Source of the DNA: a virus
Length of the DNA: 64,000 nt
Virus record (IMG/VR): IMGVR_UViG_3300030109_003751
Location: 3,977-67,976 of that record
Direction: 5' to 3' (one strand)
Under the pieces are notes generated by a model that saw nothing but the letters and a program-made list of their open reading frames with translations, did no database searches and was not told where the DNA came from. Below are positions 18,564 through 53,833 of this stretch, piece after piece. A program made the position numbers and the translations under genes. Positions within the stretch are counted from its first letter, which is position 1. Each line of letters opens with the position of its first letter.

Positions 18564-18569
18564 CCCAAT

Positions 18570-18642: not shown

Positions 18643-18656
18643 CTAAATATAATTAA

Positions 18657-19135: not shown

Positions 19136-19269
19136 GAAAATTTAACAACGAAGTCTTGTGGAGAGTTACAGTAGATGTAAATGGTAAACAAGAATATAAT
19201 ATAAATGAAAGTAATTATGATCAGTTATGTGATAAACTAACTGATATAATGATAAAAGAAACATTATGA
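19132..19269 (+). CDS. Small hypothetical protein
   Basis: 45 aa, ATGA overlap. Confidence 0.5.
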   Translation: MRKFNNEVLWRVTVDVNGKQEYNINESNYDQLCDKLTDIMIKETL

Positions 19270-19361
19270 CAGTATTAAACGAAGCAATTATGGTACTATC
19301 TATATTCGCTATAGGAATGGCGATTTTAATGTACATATTTGATAAACTAGATAATAAATAA
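19266..19361 (+). CDS. Small membrane peptide
   Basis: 31 aa with one hydrophobic helix, ATGA overlap. Confidence 0.45.
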   Translation: MTVLNEAIMVLSIFAIGMAILMYIFDKLDNK

Positions 19362-19363
19362 TT

Positions 19364-19807: not shown

Positions 19808-20252
19808 AATTGATGAAATTTGCATGAAAAATGCCGAAGAATGGCGTAAATTAAGCAAATGTAATCGCAATAAAGTAGCGTGTGTTATTTATAACCCAAG
19901 TAATAATACTATTATATCTGTGGGTTATAATGGAACACCAAGCGGTTTTCCAAACGAGTGTGAAGGTGAACATGAAAATGCAGTAACTACACCTCAAGAA
20001 TATACTCATTGGTGGGTATTACACGCAGAAGCAAATGCTATTGTAAAAATGGCTAAAGATAAAGGGTCTAGTACAAAAGATACTTGGTTATATACCACTT
20101 GTAGTCCTTGTAAAGAATGTAGTAAATTAATAATTCAAGCAGAGATTAAAAGAGTTATATATAAAGAATTATATAGAGATGACCCAGAAAAAGCTATGCC
20201 GGGAATTTATCTTATGCAAGACGCTGGTATAGACGTTAGTCAAATGGAATAA
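19791..20252 (+). CDS. dCMP deaminase
   Basis: GYNG, HAEANA and PCKEC zinc motifs. Confidence 0.9.
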   Translation: MPNQSKIDEICMKNAEEWRKLSKCNRNKVACVIYNPSNNTIISVGYNGTPSGFPNECEGEHENAVTTPQEYTHWWVLHAEANAIVKMAKDKGSSTKDTWLYTTCSPCKECSKLIIQAEIKRVIYKELYRDDPEKAMPGIYLMQDAGIDVSQME

Positions 20253-20253
20253 T

Positions 20254-20283
20254 ACGAACTAAATACGATAATATATGGATAAT
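20254..20283 (+). promoter_or_regulatory. Putative early promoter P6
   Basis: ACGA-N6-TACGA-N7-TGGATAAT; ATG 7 nt downstream. Confidence 0.7.
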
Positions 20284-22240: not shown

Positions 22241-22840
22241 CAAGATAGAAACATAAAGTGGTTAAATGATAGAAAGATTATTTATAGGAGTTTTCCTATT
22301 AATGATAAACCTACCATAGAAACAAATCAGTATATGTATTACGAGAATGGTACTTATGAGTGCTATACATTGTTTAATACACGTGCGAAGATTACTACTT
22401 ATAAATCTCTTAAGTGGCATTTCCTAGTACTTTATTATTTAAATGATGAAATAAATTTAAAGCATATCTTTAGATTTATAGCAGATAAAGAAAATGGTTT
22501 TGTTACATTTTTTATTAAGCAAAAATTATTAGATAGCATGATAATAGATGTATTAAAACAAGGTGGTGAGCCACCAGTAAATAAAATTCGTAAAGTTATA
22601 TTTAAAGACTTTAGCGGGTTAACACTAAGTGAAAAACTTAGTATTGTAGGTAAGTTAATAGGTAGATCAAGCATAGACACTGAAATGATATATCATACAA
22701 TGTTAGATTTAAACGACATGAGTAAGAAGATTACTGTAGGTCGAATTGCAGGTTTGCTTAACTGTTCTACAAGAACTATTTATCGTCACATGTGTGATGA
22801 ATTAAAACAAGAAAAACAAATTTTAAACAATCAATTATGA
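22235..22840 (+). CDS. DNA-binding protein with C-terminal HTH
   Basis: ITVGRIAGLLNCSTRTIYRHM. Confidence 0.7.
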   Translation: MSQDRNIKWLNDRKIIYRSFPINDKPTIETNQYMYYENGTYECYTLFNTRAKITTYKSLKWHFLVLYYLNDEINLKHIFRFIADKENGFVTFFIKQKLLDSMIIDVLKQGGEPPVNKIRKVIFKDFSGLTLSEKLSIVGKLIGRSSIDTEMIYHTMLDLNDMSKKITVGRIAGLLNCSTRTIYRHMCDELKQEKQILNNQL

Positions 22841-23595
22841 AAAAATATAATATAGAAAATTATATTAGGTATAAAGAAGATTTATCTTCTGTTATGCCAA
22901 AAGATCAAGATTGGGAAAGTTATACGAGAAATGAATTAATTACTAAATTCATGCCTTTGGTTGAAAACCTAGCTCGTAAATTTTCTACAGCTCAACAAGC
23001 ATCAGGTGTAATGGATATTACAGATTTAATTCAATGTGGGAATGAGGCTTTAACTCGTGCTACAGATAAATTAGATTTTAACTTATTAAAAGAGTCTGAC
23101 GATGTTGAGAAAACTTTAAAATCATTTTTTAGTAAAAGAGTTAAAGGAGCTATTAGGAGACAAATTGACATCAATAGAGGTGACATGAGAATTCCTGAGC
23201 ACAAATTAAATGAAATAAGAAAAGATAACGGTAAAGATAAAAGGATGGTTGAGATGTTTTTTAATTCTATATTTTTAAGTATAGATGCTCAACCAAAAGA
23301 TCATGATGGGGATAATTTATTATATCAAATTCCTGATAAATCAGAGCCTTATAACATTCATTTATTAAATGCTTATTTAACAAGTTTATTAAAGAAAAAC
23401 TTAACAGGAAGTGAGTACGAGGTTTTAAGACTAAGTTATGGGTTGGATTGTGAAAAACATTCCGCTAAACAAATAGCTGAAAAATTAAATATTACTGGAA
23501 CTAGTGATTATGTTAGAATATCAGAACTCAAAAAACAAGCAGTTCAAAAATTAATTGATAACGTAGATCACTCTCAAGTACTTGATTACCTGTAA
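22837..23595 (+). CDS. Phage RNA polymerase sigma-70 family factor
   Basis: Region 2 (PLVENLARKF...DLIQ.G), RIP motif and region 4 (EVLRLSYGL...QIAEKL). Confidence 0.88.
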   Translation: MKKYNIENYIRYKEDLSSVMPKDQDWESYTRNELITKFMPLVENLARKFSTAQQASGVMDITDLIQCGNEALTRATDKLDFNLLKESDDVEKTLKSFFSKRVKGAIRRQIDINRGDMRIPEHKLNEIRKDNGKDKRMVEMFFNSIFLSIDAQPKDHDGDNLLYQIPDKSEPYNIHLLNAYLTSLLKKNLTGSEYEVLRLSYGLDCEKHSAKQIAEKLNITGTSDYVRISELKKQAVQKLIDNVDHSQVLDYL

Positions 23596-37058: not shown

Positions 37059-40000
37059 TTAATTATCAAGAATTGTTCGTGTTTTTCTTGATGATTTATA
37101 TTTTTTCTTTTTTCTATCTGTTGAGGTTTTAGCTCCTTGTTCTAGTTCCCATAAAGACCAACCACTTAATAAGGCTAATTTTTGCCAAACCTCTGTATCT
37201 TCACCAACAGCATCAGCTATGTTATTAGTTTTTCTAATTAATCTATCCAAAGGCACATTAGTTGTTGCTGAAATTATCTGACCACCAGCCATGTAACCTG
37301 GGTTATCTAAACTAAATCCTTTTTCTTGTATTTCCTTTGCGTTCCAATCAACTGTTCTCAAAGCAGATCTTACTTTTGTAACTTTAGAAGATATAGGTGG
37401 GGAAAAATCTAACATCTCCCATGTTGCATTTTCATATTTAGGATTTCCTTTTTGATCTTCTTCATATAGTTTAACTAATATATTTTTAACAGTACTAACA
37501 GCAGCACCACCAATTCCTATTCCTCTTAATATAGAATCCATCATACCATTACCTAACCTAATAGCTCTACTTTCATCAATCTCTTCTTCATCGTTAAATA
37601 ACATAGTAAATAAAGCTTGCTGTATAGCGTTAAATATAAAGTTCTGTACTACACCATAGTAAGCTATTTTAGACATGTTTGTTTTCCAATCACCTCTTCT
37701 ATCTTTTAAATCTAAAAATGCTTTCTTCTGTAACCTAGCATACTGCATTGGGGTATTAGCAAACGCTAATATAATTCTACCAGCAGCTGAAGCTTGTTCC
37801 ATACTTATTCTATCTGTTCTACTAGATTGTTGACTTTCTTCTGAAATATTATACCAATCTAAATAAGCTTGTTCGTCTGCTTGCTTAGTATTTAAACCTT
37901 GTTTCTTGTAAGTATTAATTCTATTTCTATAAAAACTAGCACCACCAGAAGCAATAGCAAAGCTATCTGCAAATTGTGTTAGTACGAATCCCTTTTTTAA
38001 TAAGTAACTTATAACACCATTAACACCTTGTGGTCCCGTGGCAGCATCAGCAATTTCTGATTCAGTTACATTTATTTGTAATCCTTTTCTTCTTGTTACA
38101 AGATAATCAGAATTAATAAGCTTCATAAAGTCACTCCAAAATTGTTTTTGATTTGCAAATGCGATACCAGCTTTTAAAGGATTGTTATCTGTCCAGTTCA
38201 TATAGTTAATAGCGGATATAGTTTGTAGTACAGCAGATCTTGTATTTAAGAACATAATTGCACCAACAGAGTTATTCACCCAATCTAAAACATTATTAAC
38301 TACTCTATTACCTGTATCTAGTTTATTAGAACCTTTTTGCATACGAGTTAAAGTATTTCTTAAAGCCTCTACATATTTAGTTCCATAAGCAGCTTCAAGT
38401 TTATTCATGTTTTCTGTTGAAAATATAATATCAACATTTTCTTGCCACTCTTGTAAATATTCTTTTCTATTAATTTTATTTATACCACCAATTAAATCAG
38501 TTGTTAAATTACCAGCCAACCAAGTTTCTTCTGGAGCAGGGTAGGGTTTTCCTTTTTGAATTCTAATTAATTCATTAGCGAAACTATTTAACTCTTTATT
38601 ATCAGTTATAAATTTTTTCAATTGATTTATATCTCTTTTTGCTAGTCCAGGAATTTCCTCTCCTTGTTTATTCCATATATAAACTCTTAATGCTTGTTCA
38701 TATGTAAATCCATCAACAGCTTCTTTTTTTAAGGTTTTAGGAATTGTTTTATAATTTCTTTTTAATTGTTTAAAATCATTAGCCGTGGATATTCTATCTT
38801 GTGTTATTGTTGCCTCTGCTCTATTAAATGGATCTAATAAGTTTGTTTTAAACCAAGCCATTTGAGCATCTCCTTCTTTTCCTTTACCAAGTAATGGATA
38901 AATTAAACCTGTAAAATCTTCAGCAGAGTAAGGAATCCAGAAATTAAATCTACCTTTACTAGCTCCAACGGTTTTAGCTCGTGCTGGAGAATATTGAGCC
39001 TCTCTTGCTAAACCAGTTTTCTTTTCTAGTATTATATTAAATTCTTTATTTAATTTTTTAGTTTTACTAAACTTAGCTTGTTGTACTTTAGATTTAACAT
39101 CTATTTGATCTAATATTTGTTTAACTGCTTTTACGTTTTTAATAGCGTCATCAGCAAAATAAAAATTATTATATCCTTTAGCTGCTTTGTCTGCCACCCA
39201 ATTTGCTTTTGCTTGAGGTGTACCATCTTCTAAACCAGTTATATTATCTAAAGGAATTTCTAAACCTATACCTTTTAAGAACCTATGAATAGCTGTCGCT
39301 GCTTGTTGTGGTCGTGCTGTTAAAACAAAAATATCTTTACTACCAAACTTACCTTGACGTTTTAAAGCAAGATCTGCTAAAGGTCCTTTTTTACCCTTAA
39401 TAACTTTATTAAATTCAGAAAAATCAAAAACAGCTCCCGCATCTTCTAATGATTTAGATTTAACCGCGAATTCCGTAGCACTAAGTTTACCTTTCTTTCC
39501 ATTAGGGAGCGTGTAAAGTACCTTAGATTGAGTTTTAGCTAGAGTATCATCAAAATCAAAAACACTAATACCTTTTTCCGGTGTTTTTAAAGCTCTTCCT
39601 AATTTAGCAGCTTCATCATAGTTTGATAAAGTTTGTAATTGACCAATAGAAGATTTAGTTCTACTTAATTTATCAGGGAAAACTTTACTATTTTTATTAG
39701 CGGCTTTGTCTTGAGATTCTAAATTTTTCAAGGTTGTTAATTGTCCATCGGCACCTACTTTAAATTTATCAAAAGCAGTTTTACCATCTATAAAAACTAA
39801 AGATCTAGTATCAATACCACCCTCGTCTTTTGCTACGTCATTATTAAAGTATCTTTGCCACCAATAATTATTTAACAATCTCCATCCTTTAGGCATTTTC
39901 TCTGATAGCTTCGCTGTATTTAGTTTACCATTATCAAATTTATCTAATGCTATTAATTTATAATTATCCATAACAGCAGCATATTCATTTTTAAAGTTTC

Positions 40001-43000
40001 CGTTTTCTAAACTAATATTTAATAAATATAAATATGCGGCAGTAGCTGGCACAGCATGTTCCCACTCGTATGTTCTACCTTTAAATCCTTTTGGATTAAT
40101 AGATCTTGCAACAAGCTCTGCACCTTGTCTATGAGCGTGATCAGACAGGTTGCCAGTCATCTTTAAAAAATTACCTATTACCCTAGCGTTTTCTTTATTA
40201 TCTCTAATACTCTTATCTATTCTCTCCCACATTTGACGATGCATGCTAGTATTAATTTCATTATATTTTTTAACAGTACCATCTTTAAAAGCTTTGTTTA
40301 CTTTGCTTTCATTTTCTCCAAATATGTTATCATAAGGTCTAGCTTTCCATTCCTTTCCTTTACCTGTAAAGTCTTTTCCATACGTTAAATCTGAATCCAT
40401 TAATAGATTATCTCTTTGTTGAGTATAGTAGTTATCTACCGTTGTTTTTGTACCGTCAACATTAATTTCTTTTTTACCTTTTAATGGAAGTATTCTATTG
40501 CTTGGTCTTAAAACTGTTTTATTTATAAATCCTTTTGGAAATAGTGGTATTAATATATTTTTAACAGCTGTAATATATTCGTCTATATTTTCTTTAGTAT
40601 CTAATTTATAAGTTGGTTTACCAATGGTAACTTCTAATAACTTATCAATACGTTTATCAGGATTAAACTCTTGATCAATAATTTTTTGACTAATAGAAAA
40701 CTTTTCTTCCATGTCTCTATCAATCTGTTTGCCTATAAGAGCTGTTTCTTCTGTGGTATCAATAACATCTTTTTCTAATTCCCTTATAGCTTTTCTTTTT
40801 TCAGCAACCTCGGTAGTTTGAGATACTTCAGGTGTAGCATCAAAGCCTAATTCTTCGGCTATAGCATCGGCTAAAGCATCTTTACGAGTTCCTTTAGTAG
40901 ATGGTGCCACATCATCTCCTAGGAAATGATTAATAAAATCTTGTTGAGTAACAGCTTTTTTATTATATAAAGTAGGGCCAGATGTTCTATTAACATTCCA
41001 AGCTAATTTTCTATCTTTAATAGCTTGATCCACTTCTGTAGGGCTAATATTTGTTTTAACAACTTTAGTAAATACCCTATCATTAGGTGATTTCATTCTT
41101 TCAAATTTAACCAATGTGGTTACAGGTAATTTATCAACAATTGTTTTCCAGTTTTTCTTTAAAAAGTTTTTATACTCTTGTCTTGTACCCATTAAGTTAG
41201 CAACAGGAGTTTTTAATTCTGTTTTATATATTTTACTAAGATCGTCTTTGAATTGTTTATTTGTAGCACTTGGTAATTTAGTACCAAAAGCTTTTTTAAC
41301 AGCACCTTTTACTTTATCAACTAACTCAGTATCTATTTCTAATAATTTTCTAAATGATTTTGGTTTAGTTTTTTCTTTAGTTTTTATAATTTCTTCTTCT
41401 ACTATAGTATCTTCTGCCGTTTGAGGAGATGTTACTGCTCTAGCCTCTGTTACATCACTTGTGAATTCAGTATCCAATACTCTGTTAGCTGCCTCAATTG
41501 TTCTAGCTTTTAAATATTTGTTTATGTAAGCGGCTAAAGGAACACCTTGTTCAGGTCGATAAGCACTAATTAAATCATACACACCACGTGGACCAGTTAA
41601 TATTTCATCTATTAAAATATCCTTGTTGGTTGTGTAACCAGGCACCGTATTAAAGTTACTAGCTAACTTAGCGGCCATTGGTTTATATTCTTCTATAATT
41701 TCAAAAGCTCCTTGTAATCCCTTTTCATTATATATATCTTGAACTTTAATAGAAGCTGATTTAGATAATTTATCTCCTTTAATAGTTCTAGCCCCTTTAG
41801 TTTGTACAGTAATATTTTTAGTAGCTCCTTCAATATTTCTAGTATATTCTTTTATAAAATCCCTTATACCTTTACCTGTTTTAAAATCTGCTTTAGCCCA
41901 TCCAAACTTTCTAAGTACTGGTAAAATTACTTTATCTTTTATCTTAGTTAATATCCCTTCGTCACCTTTTATATCACCCTCTTTTATCATAGAAGAATAC
42001 ACAGTGAAATACTCATCAGGATTTTCTTTTAAATATTTAGAATCATAATTTTCTGTAACTCTTTTTTCTAATAAAGTTAATTCGTCTTTAGATAAACTAT
42101 CTTTAAAATCATTAACTAATTTATCAACTTGAGTTTTATCAGAGAATTGATTATTTAATATACGATGTAATAACTCATGTTGTGGTGCACTAAAAGCTCC
42201 AGTTTCTTTTGCTGCTTCTTTATTAATATATATTTGACCAGCCTTGTCTATAAACGCATCAACACCATCTTTTTCTTTCCCAAATTTCTCTATAAACTCT
42301 TTGTTTGTTTCAAATGTAGTTGTAGCGTCGAAACCTAAATCTTTCGCGATTACATCAACCTGTTCTGTTTCTGTGGCTAATTGACCCTCAACAGCCTCTT
42401 TTCTAATGTCATCTAGTTCTTTATCTATAGCATTTGATTGATTATTAATAGCTCTTTGATAACCACCTAGTTGTTGTTTAGTTATTTCCCCTGCGCTTAG
42501 TTGATCTCTTAAACTAATAGACTGCTTATATAGATTATCTTTCTTATCCATTAACTCTATAAGTCTATTCTTTTGAGATGAATCTAAATAACCCACTATA
42601 TCATCATTACTTTTAATATAATCTTTTAGTTCACTTGTAACTCTTTGTATTTCCCCTTCAATAATAGGTTTGTTTTTTGGACTTGCTTGACCTTTTTGTA
42701 AACCTAATGCGGATAATTCTTGAATTTTTCTATTAACAAATCTAGTACCATCAGTACCATTTCTTAAAGCTCTATTTATCTGTCTACCTCCACCAGCTAA
42801 AACACCAGCTCCAACCACTCCTCTAATATATGATTCCAAACCATCATCTGACAACATTTTGTCCCAAGCTACTTGCCCAGATTCTAACATTGATTTACCT
42901 TGGGCTAATTCTAAATTTATTGTTTCAGCACCAAGCTGTCCCCACTCTGTTAAACCCTCTCTTTGTGTTGTTGTAAGTAATGTAGCAGCACCTCTACTTA

Positions 43001-44219
43001 AAAAGCTTTTTTGCATAACATACTTTGACATACCCTTTATCCCAAATCTTTCCATTCCAATTGAAACAGCGGTTAAAGCGGTTGGTGCTATAACGTCAGT
43101 TTGTTCTGTAAAAATTAAATCTTCTAGTGGATTTTCTGAATCAGGGAAAAGATGTTCTGCTTTTTGAATTTGATAATCAGCAACCATAGGTCCACCAATT
43201 TGTCCAATTAAACTTAAACCCCGTGTTGCAACGGCCGGACCAACAGTCGCAAACATGTCTGCCACTGTCTCAACTGTACCAACTAAAGCATCTCCAGGAT
43301 TTGAAGCCGCATACGAAGGTAGCATGGTGGGTGCGACTGAACCTAAACCTTTAACAATACCGGTACCTGTAGGTAACCTTGATTCTGTAATCTCTTTGTA
43401 TCCACCAAAGTTTTTGATTAAATAATCATAAGAAGCTTTACCAACTTGTTCTCTAGTGTTAGAATATATAGCTTTAATTCTACCTGTTTGTGAGCCTTCT
43501 ATGTCGTTTAAAAACCCATCATTGTGTCCACGTTGTGCTTTGTCTAATTCTTTCCACCTATCAGGGTTTATGTTTATATCTATTTCTTCCCCGTTAACTG
43601 GATCTATATATATTACATCACCTTGTTTTTTACTCCAACTAAGATAACCCTCTGAATATGGCTGCTCAATTTCAAGTAGTGTTTCTCCTTTTTCATTTTT
43701 CACAGGAGTTGTAACGTTTCCTCGCACCATATAATCTGATAATTTATTAGCCTCGATAAATGGTTGATATTCAGCTAATGATCTTTCTAATAAATGCCAC
43801 CATCCTTTAGAAGAAGGTATTGCACCAGTGAAACCACCCGGGTTACTTAAAAAATTTTTACCTACATTTTCTAATTTTTCCCAAGTTGTTAGATCATAAC
43901 CATACGGATCTTTTTCTTCTTGTATTTCAAAATCAAATTCATCAGCAACATTATCAATAATTTTTTTATTTTCTTCTCTTTGATCACCAGCTTCTTTGTC
44001 ATCACCAACACTTTTAGATATTTGAACAACTTCTTGAGGTTCTAATAAAGTACTACCCGGTTGTATACCTTTGTTTTCATCTTGATTAATTGGTTCTACG
44101 GTTTCTTCTTCTACTATAGTTTGTTCAACCACAACCGCATCAGGATAATCTTTTAAAAAACCCTCTACCAATTCATCAGGAATATCGTATATATCGTTTC
44201 CTACTTTATATTTTGGCAT
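37059..44219 (-). CDS. Giant internal virion/ejection polyvalent protein
   Basis: 2386 aa after the tail genes; HELLH zincin motif, sigma-2-like segment, HAD motif FDFDDTL. Confidence 0.7.
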   Translation of the reverse strand: MPKYKVGNDIYDIPDELVEGFLKDYPDAVVVEQTIVEEETVEPINQDENKGIQPGSTLLEPQEVVQISKSVGDDKEAGDQREENKKIIDNVADEFDFEIQEEKDPYGYDLTTWEKLENVGKNFLSNPGGFTGAIPSSKGWWHLLERSLAEYQPFIEANKLSDYMVRGNVTTPVKNEKGETLLEIEQPYSEGYLSWSKKQGDVIYIDPVNGEEIDININPDRWKELDKAQRGHNDGFLNDIEGSQTGRIKAIYSNTREQVGKASYDYLIKNFGGYKEITESRLPTGTGIVKGLGSVAPTMLPSYAASNPGDALVGTVETVADMFATVGPAVATRGLSLIGQIGGPMVADYQIQKAEHLFPDSENPLEDLIFTEQTDVIAPTALTAVSIGMERFGIKGMSKYVMQKSFLSRGAATLLTTTQREGLTEWGQLGAETINLELAQGKSMLESGQVAWDKMLSDDGLESYIRGVVGAGVLAGGGRQINRALRNGTDGTRFVNRKIQELSALGLQKGQASPKNKPIIEGEIQRVTSELKDYIKSNDDIVGYLDSSQKNRLIELMDKKDNLYKQSISLRDQLSAGEITKQQLGGYQRAINNQSNAIDKELDDIRKEAVEGQLATETEQVDVIAKDLGFDATTTFETNKEFIEKFGKEKDGVDAFIDKAGQIYINKEAAKETGAFSAPQHELLHRILNNQFSDKTQVDKLVNDFKDSLSKDELTLLEKRVTENYDSKYLKENPDEYFTVYSSMIKEGDIKGDEGILTKIKDKVILPVLRKFGWAKADFKTGKGIRDFIKEYTRNIEGATKNITVQTKGARTIKGDKLSKSASIKVQDIYNEKGLQGAFEIIEEYKPMAAKLASNFNTVPGYTTNKDILIDEILTGPRGVYDLISAYRPEQGVPLAAYINKYLKARTIEAANRVLDTEFTSDVTEARAVTSPQTAEDTIVEEEIIKTKEKTKPKSFRKLLEIDTELVDKVKGAVKKAFGTKLPSATNKQFKDDLSKIYKTELKTPVANLMGTRQEYKNFLKKNWKTIVDKLPVTTLVKFERMKSPNDRVFTKVVKTNISPTEVDQAIKDRKLAWNVNRTSGPTLYNKKAVTQQDFINHFLGDDVAPSTKGTRKDALADAIAEELGFDATPEVSQTTEVAEKRKAIRELEKDVIDTTEETALIGKQIDRDMEEKFSISQKIIDQEFNPDKRIDKLLEVTIGKPTYKLDTKENIDEYITAVKNILIPLFPKGFINKTVLRPSNRILPLKGKKEINVDGTKTTVDNYYTQQRDNLLMDSDLTYGKDFTGKGKEWKARPYDNIFGENESKVNKAFKDGTVKKYNEINTSMHRQMWERIDKSIRDNKENARVIGNFLKMTGNLSDHAHRQGAELVARSINPKGFKGRTYEWEHAVPATAAYLYLLNISLENGNFKNEYAAVMDNYKLIALDKFDNGKLNTAKLSEKMPKGWRLLNNYWWQRYFNNDVAKDEGGIDTRSLVFIDGKTAFDKFKVGADGQLTTLKNLESQDKAANKNSKVFPDKLSRTKSSIGQLQTLSNYDEAAKLGRALKTPEKGISVFDFDDTLAKTQSKVLYTLPNGKKGKLSATEFAVKSKSLEDAGAVFDFSEFNKVIKGKKGPLADLALKRQGKFGSKDIFVLTARPQQAATAIHRFLKGIGLEIPLDNITGLEDGTPQAKANWVADKAAKGYNNFYFADDAIKNVKAVKQILDQIDVKSKVQQAKFSKTKKLNKEFNIILEKKTGLAREAQYSPARAKTVGASKGRFNFWIPYSAEDFTGLIYPLLGKGKEGDAQMAWFKTNLLDPFNRAEATITQDRISTANDFKQLKRNYKTIPKTLKKEAVDGFTYEQALRVYIWNKQGEEIPGLAKRDINQLKKFITDNKELNSFANELIRIQKGKPYPAPEETWLAGNLTTDLIGGINKINRKEYLQEWQENVDIIFSTENMNKLEAAYGTKYVEALRNTLTRMQKGSNKLDTGNRVVNNVLDWVNNSVGAIMFLNTRSAVLQTISAINYMNWTDNNPLKAGIAFANQKQFWSDFMKLINSDYLVTRRKGLQINVTESEIADAATGPQGVNGVISYLLKKGFVLTQFADSFAIASGGASFYRNRINTYKKQGLNTKQADEQAYLDWYNISEESQQSSRTDRISMEQASAAGRIILAFANTPMQYARLQKKAFLDLKDRRGDWKTNMSKIAYYGVVQNFIFNAIQQALFTMLFNDEEEIDESRAIRLGNGMMDSILRGIGIGGAAVSTVKNILVKLYEEDQKGNPKYENATWEMLDFSPPISSKVTKVRSALRTVDWNAKEIQEKGFSLDNPGYMAGGQIISATTNVPLDRLIRKTNNIADAVGEDTEVWQKLALLSGWSLWELEQGAKTSTDRKKKKYKSSRKTRTILDN

Positions 44220-47633: not shown

Positions 47634-48959
47634 TTAATAAGAAGATTCTGTAAAATCAGTTGAAGTTGCAAACAATTCATTCGTACCAGACGAAGCATCG
47701 TTAACTACACTTAATTTTGCTATTGCATAAAACCCCTTTATACCAGAGATTGATTTACCATAAATAACCTCACCACTAGTTGCGGCTGATGTATTTATTA
47801 AGTTTGCAAAATATTTATCTTCTTTTGCTTTAAATTTATTTGCTAATAATGAAGCTTCCATATCAGCCAACGTTGTTGGTACTGAGTATTTAGCTACAGC
47901 GTTTGCTGTATCTTCATTTGTTATAAAACTTTCTAATGTCCAGTTTGGTCCACCTTCATAATTTATAGTTTTAAATCTTTTTACAGATGATGGTTGTATA
48001 TTAAACACTGTTGTGATATTTGAATTACTTGTTGTCCCATAAAAAGTTGCTCTAGGTATAGGTGAACCAGCATCATCTTGAGTTACATAGTGTTGATAAA
48101 TAGTACCATCTTTTGTGTCACTGTGACCACTAGTTGTTGAGTAAAAATTATTACCTAAACTAAACATATCATCTGGTTTATAACTAAATAAACTTGTCCA
48201 ACCTAATACTTGCTCATCAAAATTTAATGTTTTATACGTGGATCCATCAGAGAATGCTGCTTGTGGTTGAATCGATACTGTATAACATTTATTATGTATA
48301 TCCCATCCACCGATTATTTTACCATTACCTAAGTTAGATAAATGATCTCTAAAGAAATCATACATACCATAATTAGATATTTCAGTTAAACCATCTCTTG
48401 ATAACCTCATAACTGATCCTTTTTCCGCATCAGTAAAATATTTTCTATAACCATATACGGCGAATGATTCTGGATTTGTGGATATACCAAACTCACCAGA
48501 ATAGGATGATATTTGCCCAATAACCACATTTGATGTGGTTTGAATAGGTGATCCTTCTGCTGTATATATAGCGTCTTTATCTATTAAAGCTCTATTTACT
48601 TTTCTTTCTTGAAAAATAATTAAATTAGTATCTTCAGCATGTAATTTTTGTATTGTTCCTTTTGAAGGATCTACAGATTTAGTTATATCTTTACCAGCGT
48701 TAAACACGTTTGTTTGGTTAATACCAGTTCTAGAATTAAACACACCTGAATAAATTAAAGAATTACCCAGAGACTGTTGTAAATTACTTTCAGCTTCAAT
48801 AAAAGCTCTTGGTGCTAGACCAGTTGATACATTGTTATAACCACCTCTTATTCTTGATTCTTCTATATACCAATTATATGAAGTACCATAAGTAGTTGTA
48901 TCAGCTATCTTCTTAAGAATATAGGTGTTATAGTATTTTATATCTACGCTTGTTGCCAT
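47634..48959 (-). CDS. Tail stabilisation/nozzle protein, C-terminal module
   Basis: EFGIS.NPESFA.YG..KYFTD...G.V.RLS.DGLT.IS beta-propeller-like motif. Confidence 0.65.
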   Translation of the reverse strand: MATSVDIKYYNTYILKKIADTTTYGTSYNWYIEESRIRGGYNNVSTGLAPRAFIEAESNLQQSLGNSLIYSGVFNSRTGINQTNVFNAGKDITKSVDPSKGTIQKLHAEDTNLIIFQERKVNRALIDKDAIYTAEGSPIQTTSNVVIGQISSYSGEFGISTNPESFAVYGYRKYFTDAEKGSVMRLSRDGLTEISNYGMYDFFRDHLSNLGNGKIIGGWDIHNKCYTVSIQPQAAFSDGSTYKTLNFDEQVLGWTSLFSYKPDDMFSLGNNFYSTTSGHSDTKDGTIYQHYVTQDDAGSPIPRATFYGTTSNSNITTVFNIQPSSVKRFKTINYEGGPNWTLESFITNEDTANAVAKYSVPTTLADMEASLLANKFKAKEDKYFANLINTSAATSGEVIYGKSISGIKGFYAIAKLSVVNDASSGTNELFATSTDFTESSY

Positions 48960-48968
48960 TTTTTATTA

Positions 48969-48992
48969 TCACTTATTTATTTAGTTACTTAC
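48969..48992 (-). promoter_or_regulatory. Putative phage-sigma internal promoter
   Basis: Minus strand GTAAGTAACTAAATAAATAAGTGA, 9 nt before ATG 48959. Confidence 0.5.
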
Positions 48993-51900
48993 TACAATTC
49001 AGGTCCAGTTTCTCCAGAACTAGATGTTGCTGTAGGTGTTTCACCGTCACCATACATAGGTGGATTGGTATAGGTTGTTGGGTCCATTGATACCAGATTA
49101 CCACTTGGAATAGTTGCTATATCATCTGAAAGACTTCCTTTTGTTGCTACTATATTTATTTGATAACCACTACCATTTGCTTCAGGGATAGTAACATAAG
49201 CATTAGTTATAGCACAATTCGTATAATCATATGGTGTACCCGTCCCTGGTGATTTTTGACCAGGTTTAATTCCAGCATTAACTACATTAGCAGCATTACT
49301 AAAAGCTTCTAAGTAAGCTAATTTTCTATAATTTGAATACCCTGTATATGAAGGTCCTGTACCTGTAAATGAAGGCGCCACTGGTGCACCACCTGTAATA
49401 TCTACTGGTGGAGCATCTTGATCTATATATTCTCCAAAAGCTGATGTAGTACTAGTTCGAGCATTTTTAAATTGTACACTAATTGTTGACGATCCTGCCC
49501 CAAATACTTTACCTACTCTAACAAATAATGTAATTGCATCAGTTGTCCAATTTTGGAATGTTCCAATCCATATAGGGTTTGTTGTTGTCATTCCCGATGT
49601 ACAATCATTAGCGCCACTACTTTGTAGTACTAATGATGAACCAGTTGTGTTTCCAGTTGTATTAGGTTTAGGATTACCCACACATACATCAAACGAAGAG
49701 TTTATTATACTACCATCGTATCTATCGCTAGGTCCAGTAAATGTTATATCTGTTGAAACCGCAGCACCTAATGCATCAGTTAAAGTAGCTGTAACAACAT
49801 ATGTACTACTAGCTACTAACGTATAACCACCAGTCGTTGTCATTCCAAAACCATAATTACTTGTTGCTGGATCATCTGTTAAACAATCTGCCGTGCTATT
49901 TGATCCCTGAGTATTAATAGTAAAATAACTACCAACTGTTTGACTTGCCCCGTCTATTGTTAAAGCTGTTAACGTCCAACCAGCTCCACTAGCTGATGGG
50001 AATAAATATCTTTGACATGCATCTGCACTACCGTTTACACCAGTTGGTCCCGCACCGTTTGTGAATATAGTTGCTGACCCTAGTGTTGGTGTTGGTTGTG
50101 AGTATGAATTTATAATTGGGTTAATATTTTCTAACGTAGTATTAAAGCTTTGAGTAGAAGCTGTACCATCAGACTGGGTAAACTGTATAGTAAATTCAAA
50201 ATACCCCGTGTTAGCATTATCCTCACTTGCATAAAACACTCCGTTTGTTGTAACTTTAAAAGAACCCGTTTGACTTCCATTATTTAAAGTAAATTTGCTT
50301 GTTTCATTAACGTTTAAATTACCTCCTGTATCTTTAGAAAACACTGATTGTAAAGTAGCTGTTGTATCAGTAACATTTTGCCCACCCGCTGTAGGAAAAA
50401 AATCATTTGTTATATCACTTCCACTAACCAAACCTTCATTAAAAGAAACTGTTATACTAGATAGACCAGTTATTGCCCCACTTTCGTTTTGTACATTATA
50501 ATTTAAATCTGATACTAATCCAGCGGTTGAAGTTTCCCAGTACAATTCTAACCGCGATATAACAGGTTTTGTTTCATAAACCGCTAAATTCATATCATCC
50601 GGATATGGACTAGGTGATACTGGTATCTCATACGCATCTTCATCTAAACCAATTGGTTTTTGGGTTGTAAACTTAGCTATATATGGTTTAGATAAATAAT
50701 CATAAATACAATATTGATTTATTTCATCTGCATCACTTCCAGCGGCAATACCTGGGAATACGTCTGCAATTGTCCCTATTAATTCAACTTTATCAGAATT
50801 ACTACTTGGTATAAATTGTTGATTACCAGGGTTGTTACTTGCATTGTACAAAGTGTTAGTTACTCTACCATACATTCTAACGTCGCTATTAAATTGATCA
50901 TCTAATGGACCAACCTCTTGAAGGTTTCTAGGTACTTTATTTATATTATCAGCTATTAAAGTAATAAAACCTATTTCACCTTGTTCATCCGTGTTTGAAA
51001 CAATTGGATAACCACTGACTATACCAGGTAAATAAACATTATAATATTCTTGTTCTTGTTGTTTTATAGCAACTCTATATGTATACCAACCATTTGGGTT
51101 TATTGAATAAGTTGCCCATGTTCCACCTGTTGTTGGTAATTCAGGTTCTGGTCTATCAGTTGTTCCATTTGCTTTGAAAAAATAAGTATCTGCTACTTGA
51201 TCTTTAGTTTCTACTGTAAAATACTGACTAGGATAAATACCACTTATACCGCTAACAGCTGTTATTTCTGTATAATCTTTATATTTTCCTCTCATATATC
51301 TACCAACTTGATATGGAGCATCAGCTCCAACTGTCATTTCTTCAACACACCCACTACCAATTGGATCACAAGGGTTTATATTTATTATTTTAGATTTAAA
51401 TCTTTTATTAAGACCTGGCGTAGAAGAATTACCATAGTAAATTTGAAATCTTACTTCAGAACTACTTGTTAAAGTAACATTATCAGTACCACTTTGATCA
51501 TAAGTTAGTTCTACTTCATTATCAGTACCTTCGGCGATAGAATAACTAAAACCATTTTTCCACCCATCACCGTTATTTACAAAAAAATCATAAGTATTCG
51601 CAGCATCATTAGCATCGTCATATTCTAAACCTGAAAAGGAAAATGTAAAAATATCACCAGTTGGAGCCACATACCCCACATCTTGACTACTTAAATCTTC
51701 AAAATATGCACTAGCAGCATTAGCAGCAGCTACTGTGTAATAAGTACCGCTAGCATAAGCACCTGGATAACCACTAATTGCTGAGAAATTTATTTGCTCT
51801 GGTATAGTATTATTAAAGTTTAGTTTTAAATTATCACCATTCCAACCCTCAACATTATTTGCAAATGCAACATTTTTATAATTATTATAAATATTAGAAC

Positions 51901-53833
51901 CAGGTTGAGGATCTCCACTTGCATCTAATTTACCGTCATAACTAGATAATATTATATCAGTTTGTCTACCATATTTATCAGCTAAAATTATACCTACTTG
52001 ATAATTTCTATTTTGTTTAATAGAATGATTAGGGTATTCTGTTGTTTGTTGTGCGCTTTTCTCTCCAATGCTAACATAATAATCTAAAGCAGTTGGTGCA
52101 GAGTATCCTTCAGTTAAATTTCCATATATAATTCTATTACCTGAACTTTCTTGTGCTAAAGACCTAACTGGTACTTTATCAAAAACCCTAGTATTTTCAT
52201 CTTGAGGTAACGTTTTAAATGGTATCGTTGATTGATAATTGTATTGATATACATTTGTATTAGTTAAACTTGATTTAAAACTAGCATCTACAGGGATAGA
52301 TTCTAATACTTGATAAGCTAAACCATCAGATTCTTTAAATATAATTTCTAATCTATTAATTTTATAATCTTCTAAAATATCTGTAGAAGGTAATTCAATA
52401 TTTAGTATAGCATTATTGATGTTGTTTTGCATAAATTCTACAACAGTTGTTCTAAACGCAGCGTCTTCATCGCTAGAGATTATGTTTCCATCACTATCTA
52501 GTACTGTAAGAAATCTACCTTCTTGTTGAGGTATAAAAACATCTTGACTAAATGGTGCTATTAAAGAATATTCATTATCATCAAATTTAAATCTATAACT
52601 AAATTTAACAAATTTATCTACTAAAAACTCAGGATCACCTTGCCACCCTCTATATCCAGCATTTTTTATACAACGTACTGATCTACCTGCTAACCTAGGA
52701 TTACTTCCAGGAGCAGTAACTTTTGTAGCACTAGCTGAATCATATTCTAGTTTATAGTAATCATCATCACTATCATCACTTGTCCAATAAGTTGCTTGCT
52801 CACCAATGTTAGCAAATGTAGCGCCTGGATCTCTTTCTCCACTAGCTACAGCTGCAAATCCTGTAGAATTATTACCTGGAACACCACCGCTTGTTTTCCA
52901 TGTAGGTATACCTTTTAATTGAGTACCAGCATCACTTAATCCACTTATCATAGTATCCCATTGTGATTCGGTAGGTATAGCAAAACCTATAGGTGCTAAA
53001 CCTCTAGAATCTAAAACAGCCCACTTATTATATAGTTTTCCATAAGTAGCGCTATTATTAAAATCATTATCGTAATAACACCAGCATCCTTCTTGATCTG
53101 TATTTTTAGCATCCCAATCCGTAGCATTTTCTACGTGTGGTATTTCATCTCCATTTTGATATGTTGATACATTTAAATTATTTTCTGTCCAATCTAAAGA
53201 ACCTATAGTTGTTGTTTCAGGATCCGCAGCATTAGACATAGTTCCTGGAAATGGAGTTAAAGTACTTCTTAAATTTATATATTCAGGAGCATTCCATGGT
53301 GCGTATTTAGCAACAGATATTTGATCTTCATTTGTATAATAAGGAGTTGAAGAGTCAGCGTCAAAAGTAACAGCACTATCTACATTTATTTTACGTGGTT
53401 GATTTTTATTGTCAGTCCAAAATAATAAACTTTCTACTAAATTAATTCCATATATAGGAAATTGTTTAGATAAATTTAAAAAACTCCCACGAACTAAAGT
53501 TTTAGCGTTATTAGTGCTAGTATTATATCTTATTATCTCACATAAATTAGATGAAGCGGCTCTATCAGTTAATCCACCATCAAAATCCGTAACAAAATAA
53601 TAAATATAACCATTACTTTCATCGGTATATTGTCCAATAATTTTATTTCCACTAGCTCCAGTAACATTTATTTGTTTATTACCTAGTATAGCTTCTAAAG
53701 CCCCGACATCACTGCCTTCGGACCTGGATACAGCAACGTTTTCAGCATCCCGATATTCATTATTAGGAAGTAGTCTATCATCCAAGTCTTTATTCATCTT
53801 GGATTTAATAAAACTATTTTTGTTTTCTGGCAT
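48992..53833 (-). CDS. Large tail protein (stabilisation protein N-terminal module) with inserted Fib_succ_major-like domain
   Basis: MNKDLDDRL.P..EYRDA.N and LFWTD..NQPRKIN; insert with W..NL, YGKLYNW-like and G.SVRC motifs. Confidence 0.7.
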   Translation of the reverse strand: MPENKNSFIKSKMNKDLDDRLLPNNEYRDAENVAVSRSEGSDVGALEAILGNKQINVTGASGNKIIGQYTDESNGYIYYFVTDFDGGLTDRAASSNLCEIIRYNTSTNNAKTLVRGSFLNLSKQFPIYGINLVESLLFWTDNKNQPRKINVDSAVTFDADSSTPYYTNEDQISVAKYAPWNAPEYINLRSTLTPFPGTMSNAADPETTTIGSLDWTENNLNVSTYQNGDEIPHVENATDWDAKNTDQEGCWCYYDNDFNNSATYGKLYNKWAVLDSRGLAPIGFAIPTESQWDTMISGLSDAGTQLKGIPTWKTSGGVPGNNSTGFAAVASGERDPGATFANIGEQATYWTSDDSDDDYYKLEYDSASATKVTAPGSNPRLAGRSVRCIKNAGYRGWQGDPEFLVDKFVKFSYRFKFDDNEYSLIAPFSQDVFIPQQEGRFLTVLDSDGNIISSDEDAAFRTTVVEFMQNNINNAILNIELPSTDILEDYKINRLEIIFKESDGLAYQVLESIPVDASFKSSLTNTNVYQYNYQSTIPFKTLPQDENTRVFDKVPVRSLAQESSGNRIIYGNLTEGYSAPTALDYYVSIGEKSAQQTTEYPNHSIKQNRNYQVGIILADKYGRQTDIILSSYDGKLDASGDPQPGSNIYNNYKNVAFANNVEGWNGDNLKLNFNNTIPEQINFSAISGYPGAYASGTYYTVAAANAASAYFEDLSSQDVGYVAPTGDIFTFSFSGLEYDDANDAANTYDFFVNNGDGWKNGFSYSIAEGTDNEVELTYDQSGTDNVTLTSSSEVRFQIYYGNSSTPGLNKRFKSKIININPCDPIGSGCVEEMTVGADAPYQVGRYMRGKYKDYTEITAVSGISGIYPSQYFTVETKDQVADTYFFKANGTTDRPEPELPTTGGTWATYSINPNGWYTYRVAIKQQEQEYYNVYLPGIVSGYPIVSNTDEQGEIGFITLIADNINKVPRNLQEVGPLDDQFNSDVRMYGRVTNTLYNASNNPGNQQFIPSSNSDKVELIGTIADVFPGIAAGSDADEINQYCIYDYLSKPYIAKFTTQKPIGLDEDAYEIPVSPSPYPDDMNLAVYETKPVISRLELYWETSTAGLVSDLNYNVQNESGAITGLSSITVSFNEGLVSGSDITNDFFPTAGGQNVTDTTATLQSVFSKDTGGNLNVNETSKFTLNNGSQTGSFKVTTNGVFYASEDNANTGYFEFTIQFTQSDGTASTQSFNTTLENINPIINSYSQPTPTLGSATIFTNGAGPTGVNGSADACQRYLFPSASGAGWTLTALTIDGASQTVGSYFTINTQGSNSTADCLTDDPATSNYGFGMTTTGGYTLVASSTYVVTATLTDALGAAVSTDITFTGPSDRYDGSIINSSFDVCVGNPKPNTTGNTTGSSLVLQSSGANDCTSGMTTTNPIWIGTFQNWTTDAITLFVRVGKVFGAGSSTISVQFKNARTSTTSAFGEYIDQDAPPVDITGGAPVAPSFTGTGPSYTGYSNYRKLAYLEAFSNAANVVNAGIKPGQKSPGTGTPYDYTNCAITNAYVTIPEANGSGYQINIVATKGSLSDDIATIPSGNLVSMDPTTYTNPPMYGDGETPTATSSSGETGPEL

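What the first reader, a model, noticed from the sequence alone, without database searches (positions are those of the whole stretch)
41480..41720. Sigma-70 region-2-like domain inside the giant ejection protein: a virion-delivered sigma factor?
Seen: AFEIIEEYKPMAAKLASNF...DILIDE...GVYDLISAYRPEQGVPLAAYINKYLKAR. This follows the sigma region 2 pattern (LI..Y.PLV..IA...DL...GL......Y.P..G..F..Y). Inference: a sigma-like module injected with the DNA could direct host RNA polymerase to the six TGGATAAT promoters before any phage protein is made. The separate sigma gene (22837-23595) would then drive the GTAA-N16-GTRA class, giving a two-tier sigma cascade that starts in the virion.
Basis: inference. 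Interest (0 to 1): 0.85.

Follow-up and report, generated by a model that had tools for sequence, protein, structure and literature searches.

The report
Sigma-factor docking domain inside giant phage protein
An uncultured marine phage carries, inside a 2,386-residue protein that it probably packs into its particle, a real but distant copy of the part of bacterial sigma factors that grips RNA polymerase, so it may seize the host's transcription enzyme on entry, although packaging, binding and activity are all untested.

Summary
The quoted residues exist: aa 838-906 of a 2,386-aa minus-strand ORF (37059-44219). Standard HMMs miss the domain, but four other lines place aa ~819-920 in sigma-70 domain 2.

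- AF2 model, pLDDT >90. In a search of 48,161 PDB chains, ranks 1-23 are sigma entries, one unidentified (best Z 8.4).
- The family profile's two best PDB sequence hits are SigE and sigma-K, in register (E 0.017, 0.034).
- hhalign to the phage's own sigma gives P 0.0034.
- 22 of 30 nearest named ESM clusters carry PF04542.

A co-fold with Flavobacterium beta-prime 220-360 scores 0.70 against 0.00 for controls, through the region-2.2-like helix. This may reflect likeness to solved complexes. No sigma3 or sigma4 was detected.

Packaging is inferred from position in the structural operon only. Early promoters ending T[GT]GATAAT recur in related phages, but the stand-alone sigma co-occurs too. First reading: partly supported. 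This scan noted the same domain earlier in at least seven other marine phage genomes. I found no paper describing it.

The parts
37059..44219 (-). Giant ORF of 2,386 aa (P0001). It is the last large gene of the structural operon and starts 5 nt after the end of the 681-aa gene upstream.
   Evidence: ORF list and translation. 334 homologues of 1,312-4,176 aa at E<=0.001, none with a functional name. Two conserved cores, aa ~640-1160 and ~1720-2360.
41460..41765 (-). Sigma-70 domain-2-like fold, aa 819-920 (regions 1.2/2.1 to 2.4 by alignment).
   Evidence: AF2 pLDDT >90. VIA-align ranks 1-23 are sigma entries, best Z 8.4. hmmsearch against PDB puts SigE and sigma-K first. hhalign to the phage's own sigma gives P 0.0034. 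ESM Atlas: 22 of 30 nearest named clusters carry PF04542. Present in 81 of 82 related loci.
41577..41639 (-). Region-2.2-like helix and flanks, aa 861-881 (GYTTNKDILIDEILTGPRGVY). This is the predicted contact surface for the beta-prime clamp helices.
   Evidence: complex prediction interface residues 50-54, 56-57, 60-61, 64-66 and 70 of the 114-aa domain. They align to the DLISIGTIGLIKAV segment of SigE. E872, I873, G876 and R878 are conserved in 90% or more of sequences and G879 is invariant.
41787..42302 (-). HExxH region, aa 640-811, a possible zincin-like metallopeptidase. HELLH is at aa 681-685 (42165-42179), with a conserved Glu about 51 residues downstream.
   Evidence: H, E and H columns conserved in 90% or more of sequences. 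E56, H59 and E110 conserved in 90% or more in A4. HE..H found in 64 of 76 relatives in the window taken. Weak PF07737 hit at E 0.021, below cut-off. The profile finds no zincin in the PDB.
40710..41354 (-). Compact basic helical domain following the sigma-2-like domain, aa 956-1170, pI 9.35. It contains the family-wide AFDAT motif (aa 1124).
   Evidence: AF2 pLDDT 87, pTM 0.81. Best structural match Z 5.2, no sigma3/sigma4 among the 50 rows shown. No Foldseek match at E<=0.001. pI. Motif present in 111 of 121 family proteins.
43020..43322 (-). N-terminal Gly/Ala-rich, moderately hydrophobic segment, aa 300-400. It is shared with the giant 'structural proteins' of Elemovirus and phi38:1.
   Evidence: Family profile against Elemovirus gp18 gives 70.0 bits and against phi38:1 gp101 gives 46.5 bits. 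Both are confined to the N-terminal region, with low alignment accuracy and high compositional bias. Hydropathy peaks at aa 312-330 and 376-394.
37140..39062 (-). C-terminal conserved core, aa 1720-2360, the best conserved part of the family. Function unknown.
   Evidence: Covered by 117-119 of 119 homologues. No Pfam or PHROG hit. The nearest ESM clusters are viral hypotheticals; the nearest Pfam-bearing ones are LPD39 (28% of members) and LPD38.
47634..53833 (-). Tail genes upstream of the giant gene. One is a 1,613-aa virion structural protein. The other is a 441-aa protein with a crassvirus muzzle C-terminal domain.
   Evidence: phrog_14478. PF25729 at E 5.5e-8, above cut-off. Both match phi38:1 gp097 'structural protein'.
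22837..23595 (+). Stand-alone sigma-70-family gene (252 aa) with sigma2 and sigma4. It lies downstream of the early promoter cluster.
   Evidence: phrog_351 at E 5.3e-16. PF04542 17.6 bits and PF04545 21.9 bits, both below cut-off. Homologues found in 10 of 10 related records searched.
14469..20283 (+). Cluster of six tripartite early promoter-like sites, TACRA-N6-TACGA-N7-TGGATAAT. The terminal boxes are at 14492, 14631, 15305, 16337, 17366 and 20276.
   Evidence: TGGATAAT occurs 11 times against 4.96 expected, and 0 of 100 shuffles reach 11. Aligned contexts. The same motif or variants with the same terminal box occur in relatives.

Best explanation
Residues about 819-920 of the giant protein are a true but very divergent homologue of sigma-70 domain 2, the module that grips the beta-prime clamp helices of RNA polymerase and reads the -10 element. 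It sits behind an HExxH (probably zincin) region and in front of a basic helical domain. All of this lies in a 2,386-aa multidomain protein encoded at the distal end of the structural operon.

I read the protein as virion cargo, a 'polyvalent' injected protein. After entry, its region-2.2-like helix would dock on host core RNA polymerase. This would capture the polymerase for the phage's non-host-type early promoters, which end in T[GT]GATAAT, before any phage gene is expressed. The stand-alone sigma, which is transcribed from those promoters, would then take over later classes.

Shown in silico: the fold, the in-register sequence likeness, and the predicted beta-prime interface. Inferred: packaging, injection, release of the module, and promoter reading.

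My odds for each step:
- sigma-2 homology: 0.9
- binds beta-prime: 0.6
- packaged and injected: 0.65
- reads the early promoters: 0.35
For: Fold:
- AF2 pLDDT >90 over aa 820-915.
- VIA-align over 48,161 chains: ranks 1-23 are sigma entries (row 14 unidentified). Examples: SigB 8x6g_H Z 8.4/2.8 A/87; ShbA Z 7.9; 7d7d_F Z 7.5; sigma28 Z 7.5; sigma32 and SigE Z 7.0.
- 43 of 46 listed Foldseek rows are sigma or initiation complexes.

Sequence:
- The A2 profile's top two PDB hits are SigE and sigma-K, aligned over regions 2.2-2.3.
- hhalign to the phage's own sigma aligns 28-105 to 32-111, P 0.0034.
- 22 of 30 nearest named ESM clusters carry PF04542, score 0.96.

Docking:
- Co-fold with RPOC_FLAJ1 220-360 scores 0.70 (runs 0.64-0.72); best of 3 controls 0.00.
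- That mark was reached by 58 of 80 solved complexes and 2 of 110 mismatched pairs.
- The runs share at least 87% of contacts, and the partner's pLDDT is at least 82.
- The interface lies on beta-prime 288-319 and on domain residues 50-70.

Context:
- The order is TerL, portal, capsid, tail and muzzle-like genes, then the giant gene, on one strand.
- The syntenic giants of Elemovirus (3,694 aa) and phi38:1 (1,691 aa) are annotated as structural proteins.
- In crAss001 the genes after the muzzle gene encode mass-spectrometry-detected cargo (PMC10172136, passages read).

Need:
- No RNA polymerase was found. PF00623 gives none while the control rings in 14 of 14 genomes; PHROG annotation of large ORFs gives none; the family profile against the PDB gives none.

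Promoters:
- 12 of 24 domain-bearing records have 4 or more copies of TACGA-N7-TGGATAAT at <=1 mismatch, clustered upstream of the sigma gene.
- 3 of the 9 records with no copy carry variants that keep the T[GT]GATAAT box.
- Elemovirus, which lacks the domain, has none.
Against: - Pfam PF04542 does not detect the domain, and only 1 of 77 members gives a weak hit.
- No Foldseek match reaches E 0.001.
- Z values of 8.4 or less lie in the range that the tool warns can arise from common helical arrangements.
- No sigma3 or sigma4 was seen. PF04545 hits only the stand-alone gene. The confident model of aa 926-1170 matches nothing sigma-like in the rows shown.
- By the SigE alignment, only one aromatic besides the invariant Tyr898 remains in the region-2.3-like stretch. 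My mapping to E. coli numbering is recalled.
- The co-fold used a stand-in host. It may also pass from memory of solved sigma/beta-prime complexes.
- Packaging is inferred from synteny alone.
- Neither the giant protein nor the stand-alone sigma has any match in 50,697 deposited phage records. Domain, sigma gene and motif therefore travel together, and co-occurrence cannot tell which one reads the promoters.
- G010 is 99% complete and has both the domain and the sigma gene, yet I found no box cluster there.
- An earlier follow-up on another genome (e1-6002074) concluded that comparison with relatives argues against promoter reading. I could not see its data.
Confidence: 0.4

Rival explanations
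1. The domain does bind host RNA polymerase but not as a promoter-specificity factor. It occupies the sigma-binding site on beta-prime to shut off host transcription at entry, or it tethers the incoming DNA-protein complex to the polymerase.
For: The predicted interface is the canonical sigma-binding surface. No sigma4 or sigma3 was found that would give bipartite promoter reading. Region-2.3-like aromatics are only partly kept.
Against: No phage RNA polymerase was found, so blocking host core would also block phage early genes. The region-2.3/2.4-like stretch GVPLAAYINKFLPxRAIEA is among the best conserved parts of the domain. That would be unnecessary for a mere plug.
Confidence: 0.2
2. The giant protein is not delivered to the next cell. 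Either the domain acts late in the producing cell, as T4 gp55 does for late genes, or it is an exapted helical module with a structural or assembly role and no polymerase contact.
For: The gene is in a late operon. T4's sigma-2-only late factor is among the best structural matches (7d7d_F, Z 7.5). No direct evidence of packaging exists.
Against: The size, the conserved HExxH and the multidomain make-up fit injected polyvalent proteins (PMC5512222, passages read). The gene sits after the muzzle-like gene, where crassvirus cargo genes lie. The N-terminal module is shared with 'structural' giants. A separate complete sigma already exists for later classes.
Confidence: 0.15
3. The giant protein is itself an unrecognised virion RNA polymerase, with the catalytic part in the conserved C-terminal core. 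The sigma-2-like domain would be its built-in promoter-melting module, as crAss-like and N4-like phages inject whole polymerases.
For: The crAss-like virion polymerase also escaped sequence searches before its structure was solved (recalled). The 640-aa C-terminal core is highly conserved and unassigned. The early promoters are long and phage-specific.
Against: The whole-family profile finds no polymerase chain in the PDB at E<=10. There are no PF00623 or PF00940 matches, although the PF00940 control rang nowhere. No conserved DxDxD-type cluster appears among the columns conserved in 90% or more of sequences. The sigma-2-like domain is predicted to fit host beta-prime.
Confidence: 0.1
4. The likeness is a chance convergence of a common helical bundle, and the domain has nothing to do with sigma factors.
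For: All significance values are modest: Z <= 8.4, Foldseek E >= 0.23, HMM E >= 0.017, hhalign probability 9.5%. Pfam is silent.
Against: Four methods of different kinds all point to the same family and the same register. Unrelated helical proteins begin only at rank 24. The motif pattern D-x-I-x-x-G-x-x-G ... P-x-x-G ... Y is conserved across 77 sequences.
Confidence: 0.07

Closest known systems
Sigma-70 family domain sigma2 (Pfam PF04542; regions 1.2 and 2.1-2.4), especially group 3 and ECF factors (SigB 8x6g, SigE 8b3z, sigma-K 8vjl, sigma28 6pmj)
   Same: Same helical fold over about 87-91 residues at 2.8-3.5 A. In-register motif D-x-I-x-x-G-x-x-G-(I/L) ... P-x-x-G ... (A/T)-Y. Predicted contact with beta-prime through the region-2.2-like helix.
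   Different: It is below Pfam detection. It is embedded at aa 819-920 of a 2,386-aa protein rather than at the start of a 20-70 kDa factor. No sigma3 or sigma4 was detected after it.
Bacteriophage T4 gp55, a late sigma consisting of a sigma2-like domain only (I take chain F of 7d7d to be gp55; recalled, not checked)
   Same: A phage-encoded sigma2-only module. Structural match Z 7.5, rmsd 2.8 A, 90 aligned. T4 late promoters are also a single 8-nt -10-type box (recalled).
   Different: gp55 is a small free protein made and used in the same cell with co-activators. Here the domain is part of a giant late-operon protein that is probably packaged.
Virion-delivered transcription machinery: N4-like giant vRNAP and crassvirus cargo RNA-polymerase proteins
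   Same: A giant protein encoded at the end of the structural module, downstream of a muzzle-like tail gene. It is expected to enter with the DNA to start early transcription (PMC10172136 passages; PMC5512222 passages). It carries an HExxH region. [quoted passage not shown]
   Different: No polymerase domain was found. There is no sequence match to any deposited phage. What would be delivered is a polymerase-docking module, not a polymerase.
Polyvalent proteins of phages and conjugative elements (Iyer et al. 2017, PMC5512222)
   Same: A very large multidomain protein with a conserved HExxH motif and variable inserted modules. The nearest Pfam-bearing ESM clusters for the C-terminal core carry LPD39/LPD38 (a lead only).
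   Different: The word 'sigma' occurs 0 times in that paper's main text, and its supplements could not be opened. No LPD or MuF family is detected by HMM.
Free-standing phage sigma factors such as phiEco32 gp36 / SU10 gp32
   Same: A phage-supplied specificity factor reading a single -10-proximal motif (PMC4281155 passages).
   Different: Those are separate middle genes. SU10's factor was seen as one peptide in a proteome that also held many non-structural proteins. That is not evidence of delivery.

Membership tests
Sigma-70 family, domain sigma2 (PF04542) | Match to the family HMM at or above the curated cut-off | tested here: not met
   No PF04542 hit for the protein or for the 187-aa piece at E<=10. 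The six-frame scan of the phage finds only the separate sigma gene. 1 of 77 relatives hits at E 0.0099.
Sigma-70 family, domain sigma2 (PF04542) | Sigma2 fold (helices of regions 1.2/2.1, 2.2, 2.3-2.4) | tested here: met
   Ranks 1-23 of 48,161 chains are sigma entries, Z 8.4 to 5.8. 43 of 46 listed Foldseek rows are sigma or initiation entries. The model has pLDDT >90.
Sigma-70 family, domain sigma2 (PF04542) | Region 2.2 surface that binds the beta-prime clamp helices | tested here: inconclusive
   The co-fold scores 0.70 against 0.00 for the best control, and the interface is on the region-2.2-like helix. This is a prediction with a stand-in host and may reflect likeness to solved complexes.
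Sigma-70 family, domain sigma2 (PF04542) | Region 2.3/2.4 residues that melt and read the -10 element | tested here: inconclusive
   Tyr898 is invariant and aligns with the Tyr of SigE's 'ATY'. An aromatic follows four residues later. Arg906 is invariant. The tryptophan pair of group 1 sigmas (recalled) is not kept.
Complete sigma factor (sigma2 plus sigma4) | A sigma4 helix-turn-helix domain (PF04545/PF08281) downstream of sigma2 | tested here: inconclusive
   The PF04545 six-frame scan hits only the stand-alone gene. The confident model of aa 926-1170 shows no sigma3 or sigma4 among the 50 rows of either search. Absence from a list does not exclude a divergent form.
Polyvalent (injected multidomain) proteins, Iyer et al. 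2017 | Zincin-like metallopeptidase domain with HExxH and a downstream Glu | tested here: inconclusive
   The motif columns are conserved in 90% or more of sequences. PF07737 hits at E 0.021, below cut-off. The profile finds no zincin in the PDB. This region was not folded.
Polyvalent (injected multidomain) proteins, Iyer et al. 2017 | Packaged in the particle and delivered with the DNA | not testable with these tools
   Only synteny and the annotation of non-homologous syntenic giants as structural proteins are available. The basis of the phi18:1 label was not seen.
Virion RNA polymerases (N4 vRNAP, crAss-like gp66 type) | A polymerase catalytic domain | tested here: not met
   PF00623 gives none, with the control ringing in 14 of 14 genomes. 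PF00940 gives none, but its control rang nowhere. The family profile against PDB sequences finds no polymerase at E<=10. The C-terminal core was not folded, so a divergent fold is not excluded.
T4 gp55-type sigma2-only factors | Small free-standing protein acting with a clamp and co-activator | tested here: not met
   The domain is internal to a 2,386-aa ORF. The short homologues found are fragments of giant genes on short contigs or split pieces.

The most novel reading that the evidence does not exclude
These marine Flavobacteriia-type podoviruses inject a sigma-like subunit instead of a polymerase. The giant cargo protein enters with the DNA, and its sigma-2-like domain replaces host sigma-A on core RNA polymerase. 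Perhaps helped by the adjacent basic domain, which could read the upstream TACRA/TACGA boxes, it opens the T[GT]GATAAT early promoters, which a Bacteroidota housekeeping sigma would read poorly. This would be a third way, besides host-type promoters and injected polymerases, for a phage to start transcription.
Probability: 0.3. Interest if true: 0.9.

Novelty: new variant of a known kind. Interest (0 to 1): 0.72.

Why it matters
How a phage gets its first genes read is a basic question. Two known answers are promoters that the host holoenzyme reads and an RNA polymerase carried in the particle (N4-like and crAss-like phages).

A sigma-type docking module carried inside a virion protein would be a further answer. 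It would also explain how a large, abundant and wholly uncultured group of marine phages can use early promoters that do not look like those of their likely Bacteroidota hosts. That group numbers 334 homologues in one search, and 162 confirmed stretches among the first 600 pattern hits in IMG/VR.

The finding also adds a sigma-like domain to the known repertoire of giant multidomain phage proteins. It gives a compact, testable fragment of about 110 aa, or 530 aa with its neighbours, for binding and transcription assays.

Tried and rejected
- Pfam and PHROGs on the whole protein and on eight pieces gave nothing above cut-off.
- The whole-family profile (2,176 positions) against PDB sequences found no sigma and no polymerase at E<=10.
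- Megablast and tblastn of the giant protein, and tblastn of the stand-alone sigma, against 50,697 phage records found no match.
- For aa 926-1170, the best VIA Z was 5.2 (a designed repeat protein) and no Foldseek match reached E<=0.001. No sigma3 or sigma4 appeared among the rows shown. This does not exclude them.
- The HExxH-region profile against the PDB found no zincin.
- I searched for stand-alone forms of the sigma-2-like module. The 28 short hits were mostly on contigs under 3 kb, or were pieces ending at the domain border. I rejected them as evidence of a free factor.
- A Kyte-Doolittle scan found no segment above 1.24, so no clear transmembrane helix.
- The duplicated LGFDAT motif is not a candidate processing site. 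Only 3 of 121 family proteins have two copies, and the conserved copy lies inside a confident helix.
- A Bacteroidota-type promoter consensus (recalled) is not enriched: 22 matches against 20 expected.
- GTAA-N16-GTRA is not enriched.
- In G010, no repeated promoter-like motif was found in the 12 kb beside its sigma gene. This is unresolved.
- Two metatranscriptome runs hold 0.31 and 0.28 of the sampled words of the early region. They were never laid, so this is no evidence of expression.
- Literature searches for a packaged or injected sigma factor returned only reovirus sigma-1 and ECF papers. Searches on crAss-like cargo and on polyvalent proteins found no such domain described. Supplements were closed, so the domain lists in the supplement of PMC5512222 were not seen.
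- The Cellulophaga proteomics paper behind the 'structural protein' labels is not in the library.
Full report
THE OBSERVATION

The window is 64,000 of the 67,976 bases of a virus record that CheckV rates 100% complete. ORF 37059-44219 on the minus strand encodes 2,386 residues. The observation as text is therefore correct.

IS IT SIGMA-LIKE?

Routine searches say no.
- Pfam finds nothing for the whole protein or for a 187-aa piece at E<=10.
- PHROGs finds nothing.
- A six-frame PF04542 scan of the phage finds only the separate sigma gene, at 17.6 bits.

More sensitive methods say yes, and they agree with each other.

1. Structure prediction. An AF2 model of aa 740-1040, built on 49 homologues, has pLDDT above 90 for aa 820-915.
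2. VIA-align, Foldseek-independent. In a scan of 48,161 representative PDB chains, ranks 1 to 23 are sigma factors or complexes that contain one. The exception is row 14, a chain I could not identify.
   - SigB: Z 8.4, 2.8 A, 87 residues
   - ShbA: Z 7.9
   - 7d7d_F: Z 7.5
   - sigma28: Z 7.5
   - sigma32 and SigE: Z 7.0
   - Unrelated helical proteins begin at rank 24, Z 5.7.
3. Foldseek. It gives no match at E<=0.001, but 43 of the 46 rows it lists are sigma or initiation-complex entries.
4. Family profile against PDB sequences. A 77-sequence alignment of the domain from 76 IMG/VR loci (A2) has SigE (E 0.017) and sigma-K (E 0.034) as its two best hits. RpoS and FliA follow, and 5 of the 15 hits are sigma factors. 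The alignment runs through regions 2.2-2.3. It is in the same register as the structural superposition on SigE.
5. hhalign of A2 against the phage's own stand-alone sigma family. It aligns 28-105 with 32-111, P 0.0034, probability 9.5%.
6. ESM Atlas. 22 of the 30 nearest named clusters carry PF04542, at 0.96.

Each signal is modest, and the tools warn that such Z values can arise from common helical arrangements. Their agreement is what makes me put homology at about 0.9.

HOW FAR DOES THE SIGMA LIKENESS EXTEND?

The next 245 residues fold confidently (pLDDT 87, pTM 0.81) into one compact, basic domain with pI 9.35. Neither structure search returns a sigma3 or sigma4 among its rows: the best Z is 5.2 and no Foldseek match reaches E<=0.001. 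PF04545 is found only in the stand-alone gene. What is present is therefore a sigma2-only module, as in T4 gp55, not a complete sigma factor.

THE REST OF THE PROTEIN AND ITS FAMILY

One search returned 334 homologues of 1,312-4,176 aa, essentially all unnamed. An IMG/VR scan confirmed 162 relatives among the first 600 pattern hits. The sigma-2-like domain is found in 81 of 82 related loci at 30-67% identity.

Two cores are conserved, aa ~640-1160 and ~1720-2360, around a variable middle. The first core begins with a conserved HExxH plus a Glu about 51 residues later. It has a weak, sub-threshold hit to the lethal-factor-type zincin family (E 0.021), and its profile finds no zincin in the PDB.

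This make-up fits the 'polyvalent protein' concept of Iyer et al. 2017. They describe zincin peptidases as the commonest hub domain and note that N4-type virion polymerases are always fused to one (PMC5512222, passages read). The word 'sigma' does not occur in that paper's main text, and its supplements were closed.

IS IT A VIRION PROTEIN?

There is no direct evidence. The indirect evidence is this.
- The gene closes a single-strand run of terminase, portal, capsid and tail genes.
- That run includes a protein with the crassvirus muzzle C-terminal domain (PF25729, E 5.5e-8).
- In crAss001 the genes that follow the muzzle gene encode cargo proteins detected in virions (PMC10172136, passages read).
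- The portal's nearest deposited relatives are podoviruses of Flavobacterium (68 records), Cellulophaga (15), Tenacibaculum (2) and Maribacter (1). The host is therefore probably a member of Flavobacteriia.
- In Elemovirus and in phi38:1 the syntenic last gene is a giant 'structural protein' of 3,694 and 1,691 aa.
- Those giants share only an N-terminal, Gly/Ala-rich region with this family (70.0 and 46.5 bits, low accuracy, strong bias). They have no sigma-2-like domain by the A2 profile.

DOCKING ON RNA POLYMERASE

I co-folded the domain alignment with residues 220-360 of Flavobacterium johnsoniae beta-prime.
- Score 0.70 (runs 0.64, 0.70, 0.72); best of three controls 0.00.
- The tool's mark was reached by 58 of 80 solved complexes and by 2 of 110 mismatched pairs.
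- The runs share at least 87% of contacts, and the partner's pLDDT is at least 82.
- The contacts lie on beta-prime 288-319 and 337-345. By recall of E. coli numbering, that is where I expect the clamp helices, but I did not check it.
- On the domain side they lie on residues 50-70, which is aa 861-881, the region-2.2-like helix.

Sigma/beta-prime complexes are solved. The pass therefore shows likeness to a sigma at the interface, not that this copy binds.

THE PROMOTER LINK

The six sites share TACRA-N6-TACGA-N7-TGGATAAT. I tested TACGA-N7-TGGATAAT in 24 records that carry the domain.
- 12 records have 4 to 8 copies at <=1 mismatch, clustered on one strand.
- 3 records have 2 copies.
- 9 records have none. 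These break down as follows:
  - Three (G012, G015, G022) turned out to have the same tripartite layout with altered upstream boxes or TTGATAAT as the last box: 5, 7 and 7 copies.
  - One (G005) is cut off about 1 kb beyond its sigma gene.
  - Four are 38-84% complete.
  - One (G010, 99% complete) remains without a detectable cluster.

Elemovirus has no match, and neither Elemovirus nor phi38:1 shows a cluster of the terminal box.

The terminal box, with A and T at the positions that matter most in a -10 element (recalled), is thus the conserved core of the promoter. That is what a conserved sigma2-type reader would predict.

However, the stand-alone sigma is present in 10 of 10 relatives searched and is also absent from all deposited phages. 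Co-occurrence therefore cannot separate the two candidates. The argument for the giant protein is one of timing: the sigma gene lies downstream of these promoters in every genome examined. An earlier follow-up on another genome concluded against promoter reading (e1-6002074). I could not see its grounds. My finding that apparent motif-less relatives carry variants may bear on it.

NO POLYMERASE

PF00623 has no match, while its control rings in 14 of 14 genomes. PF00940 has no match, but its control was silent. PHROG annotation of the large ORFs gives GroEL, primase-helicase, ribonucleotide reductase and ligase. The C-terminal core was not folded, so an unrecognised polymerase cannot be excluded.

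VERDICT

The domain is a real, divergent sigma2 homologue, probably able to grip beta-prime, in a protein that is probably virion cargo. That it acts as an injected sigma for the early promoters is plausible (about 0.3) but untested.

The same domain was noted by this scan in at least seven other marine phage genomes. My literature searches found no description in print.

Noticed in passing
window 39543-39557 (aa 1555-1559) and about 39150-39587: A DFDDT motif, followed by VLTARP and FADDA, looks like the three motifs of a HAD-type phosphatase. It lies in the variable middle of the giant protein. Pfam finds nothing there at E<=5, so this is by eye only.
   Followed up: partly
window about 40044-40073 (aa 1383-1392): A YEWEHAVPA segment (EHxxP). 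The family consensus shows N...EH..P here, and the short homologue P0266 has YEYEHAMPA. It resembles an HNH-type nuclease motif from memory.
   Followed up: no
window 42318-42335 (aa 629-634) and 40830-40847 (aa 1125-1130): LGFDAT occurs twice in this protein, flanking the HExxH/sigma-2-like/basic block. Only 3 of 121 family proteins have two copies, while 111 have at least one. It is probably not a general processing site.
   Followed up: yes
window 14469-20283 and relatives G012, G015, G022 (L087-L089): In several copies an ATG lies 4-7 nt after the T[GT]GATAAT box (for example TGGATAATatatATG). This suggests leaderless early mRNAs. The upstream boxes differ between lineages (TACGA, TACGY, ACAAAA) while the last box stays.
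   Followed up: partly
window 11639-13192 (-): The phage encodes a GroEL-type chaperonin (phrog_5725, E 1e-139), as the related Elemovirus does. It might help refold large injected proteins.
   Followed up: no
P0053, P0054 (homologues): Two family members of about 2,560 aa carry Zeta-toxin/AAA_33 kinase-type Pfam domains in their variable part. This shows that the family swaps effector-like modules.
   Followed up: no
window 48992-53833 and 47634-48959 (-): The 1,613-aa and 441-aa proteins together match one protein, phi38:1 gp097 (N-terminal part and residues 877-1199). The muzzle-like gene therefore appears split or expanded here.
   Followed up: partly
G009 and G002 (relatives): The stand-alone sigma gene appears in two pieces, with in-frame TAA stops at the junction, in two related records. 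This could be a frameshift or an assembly error.
   Followed up: no
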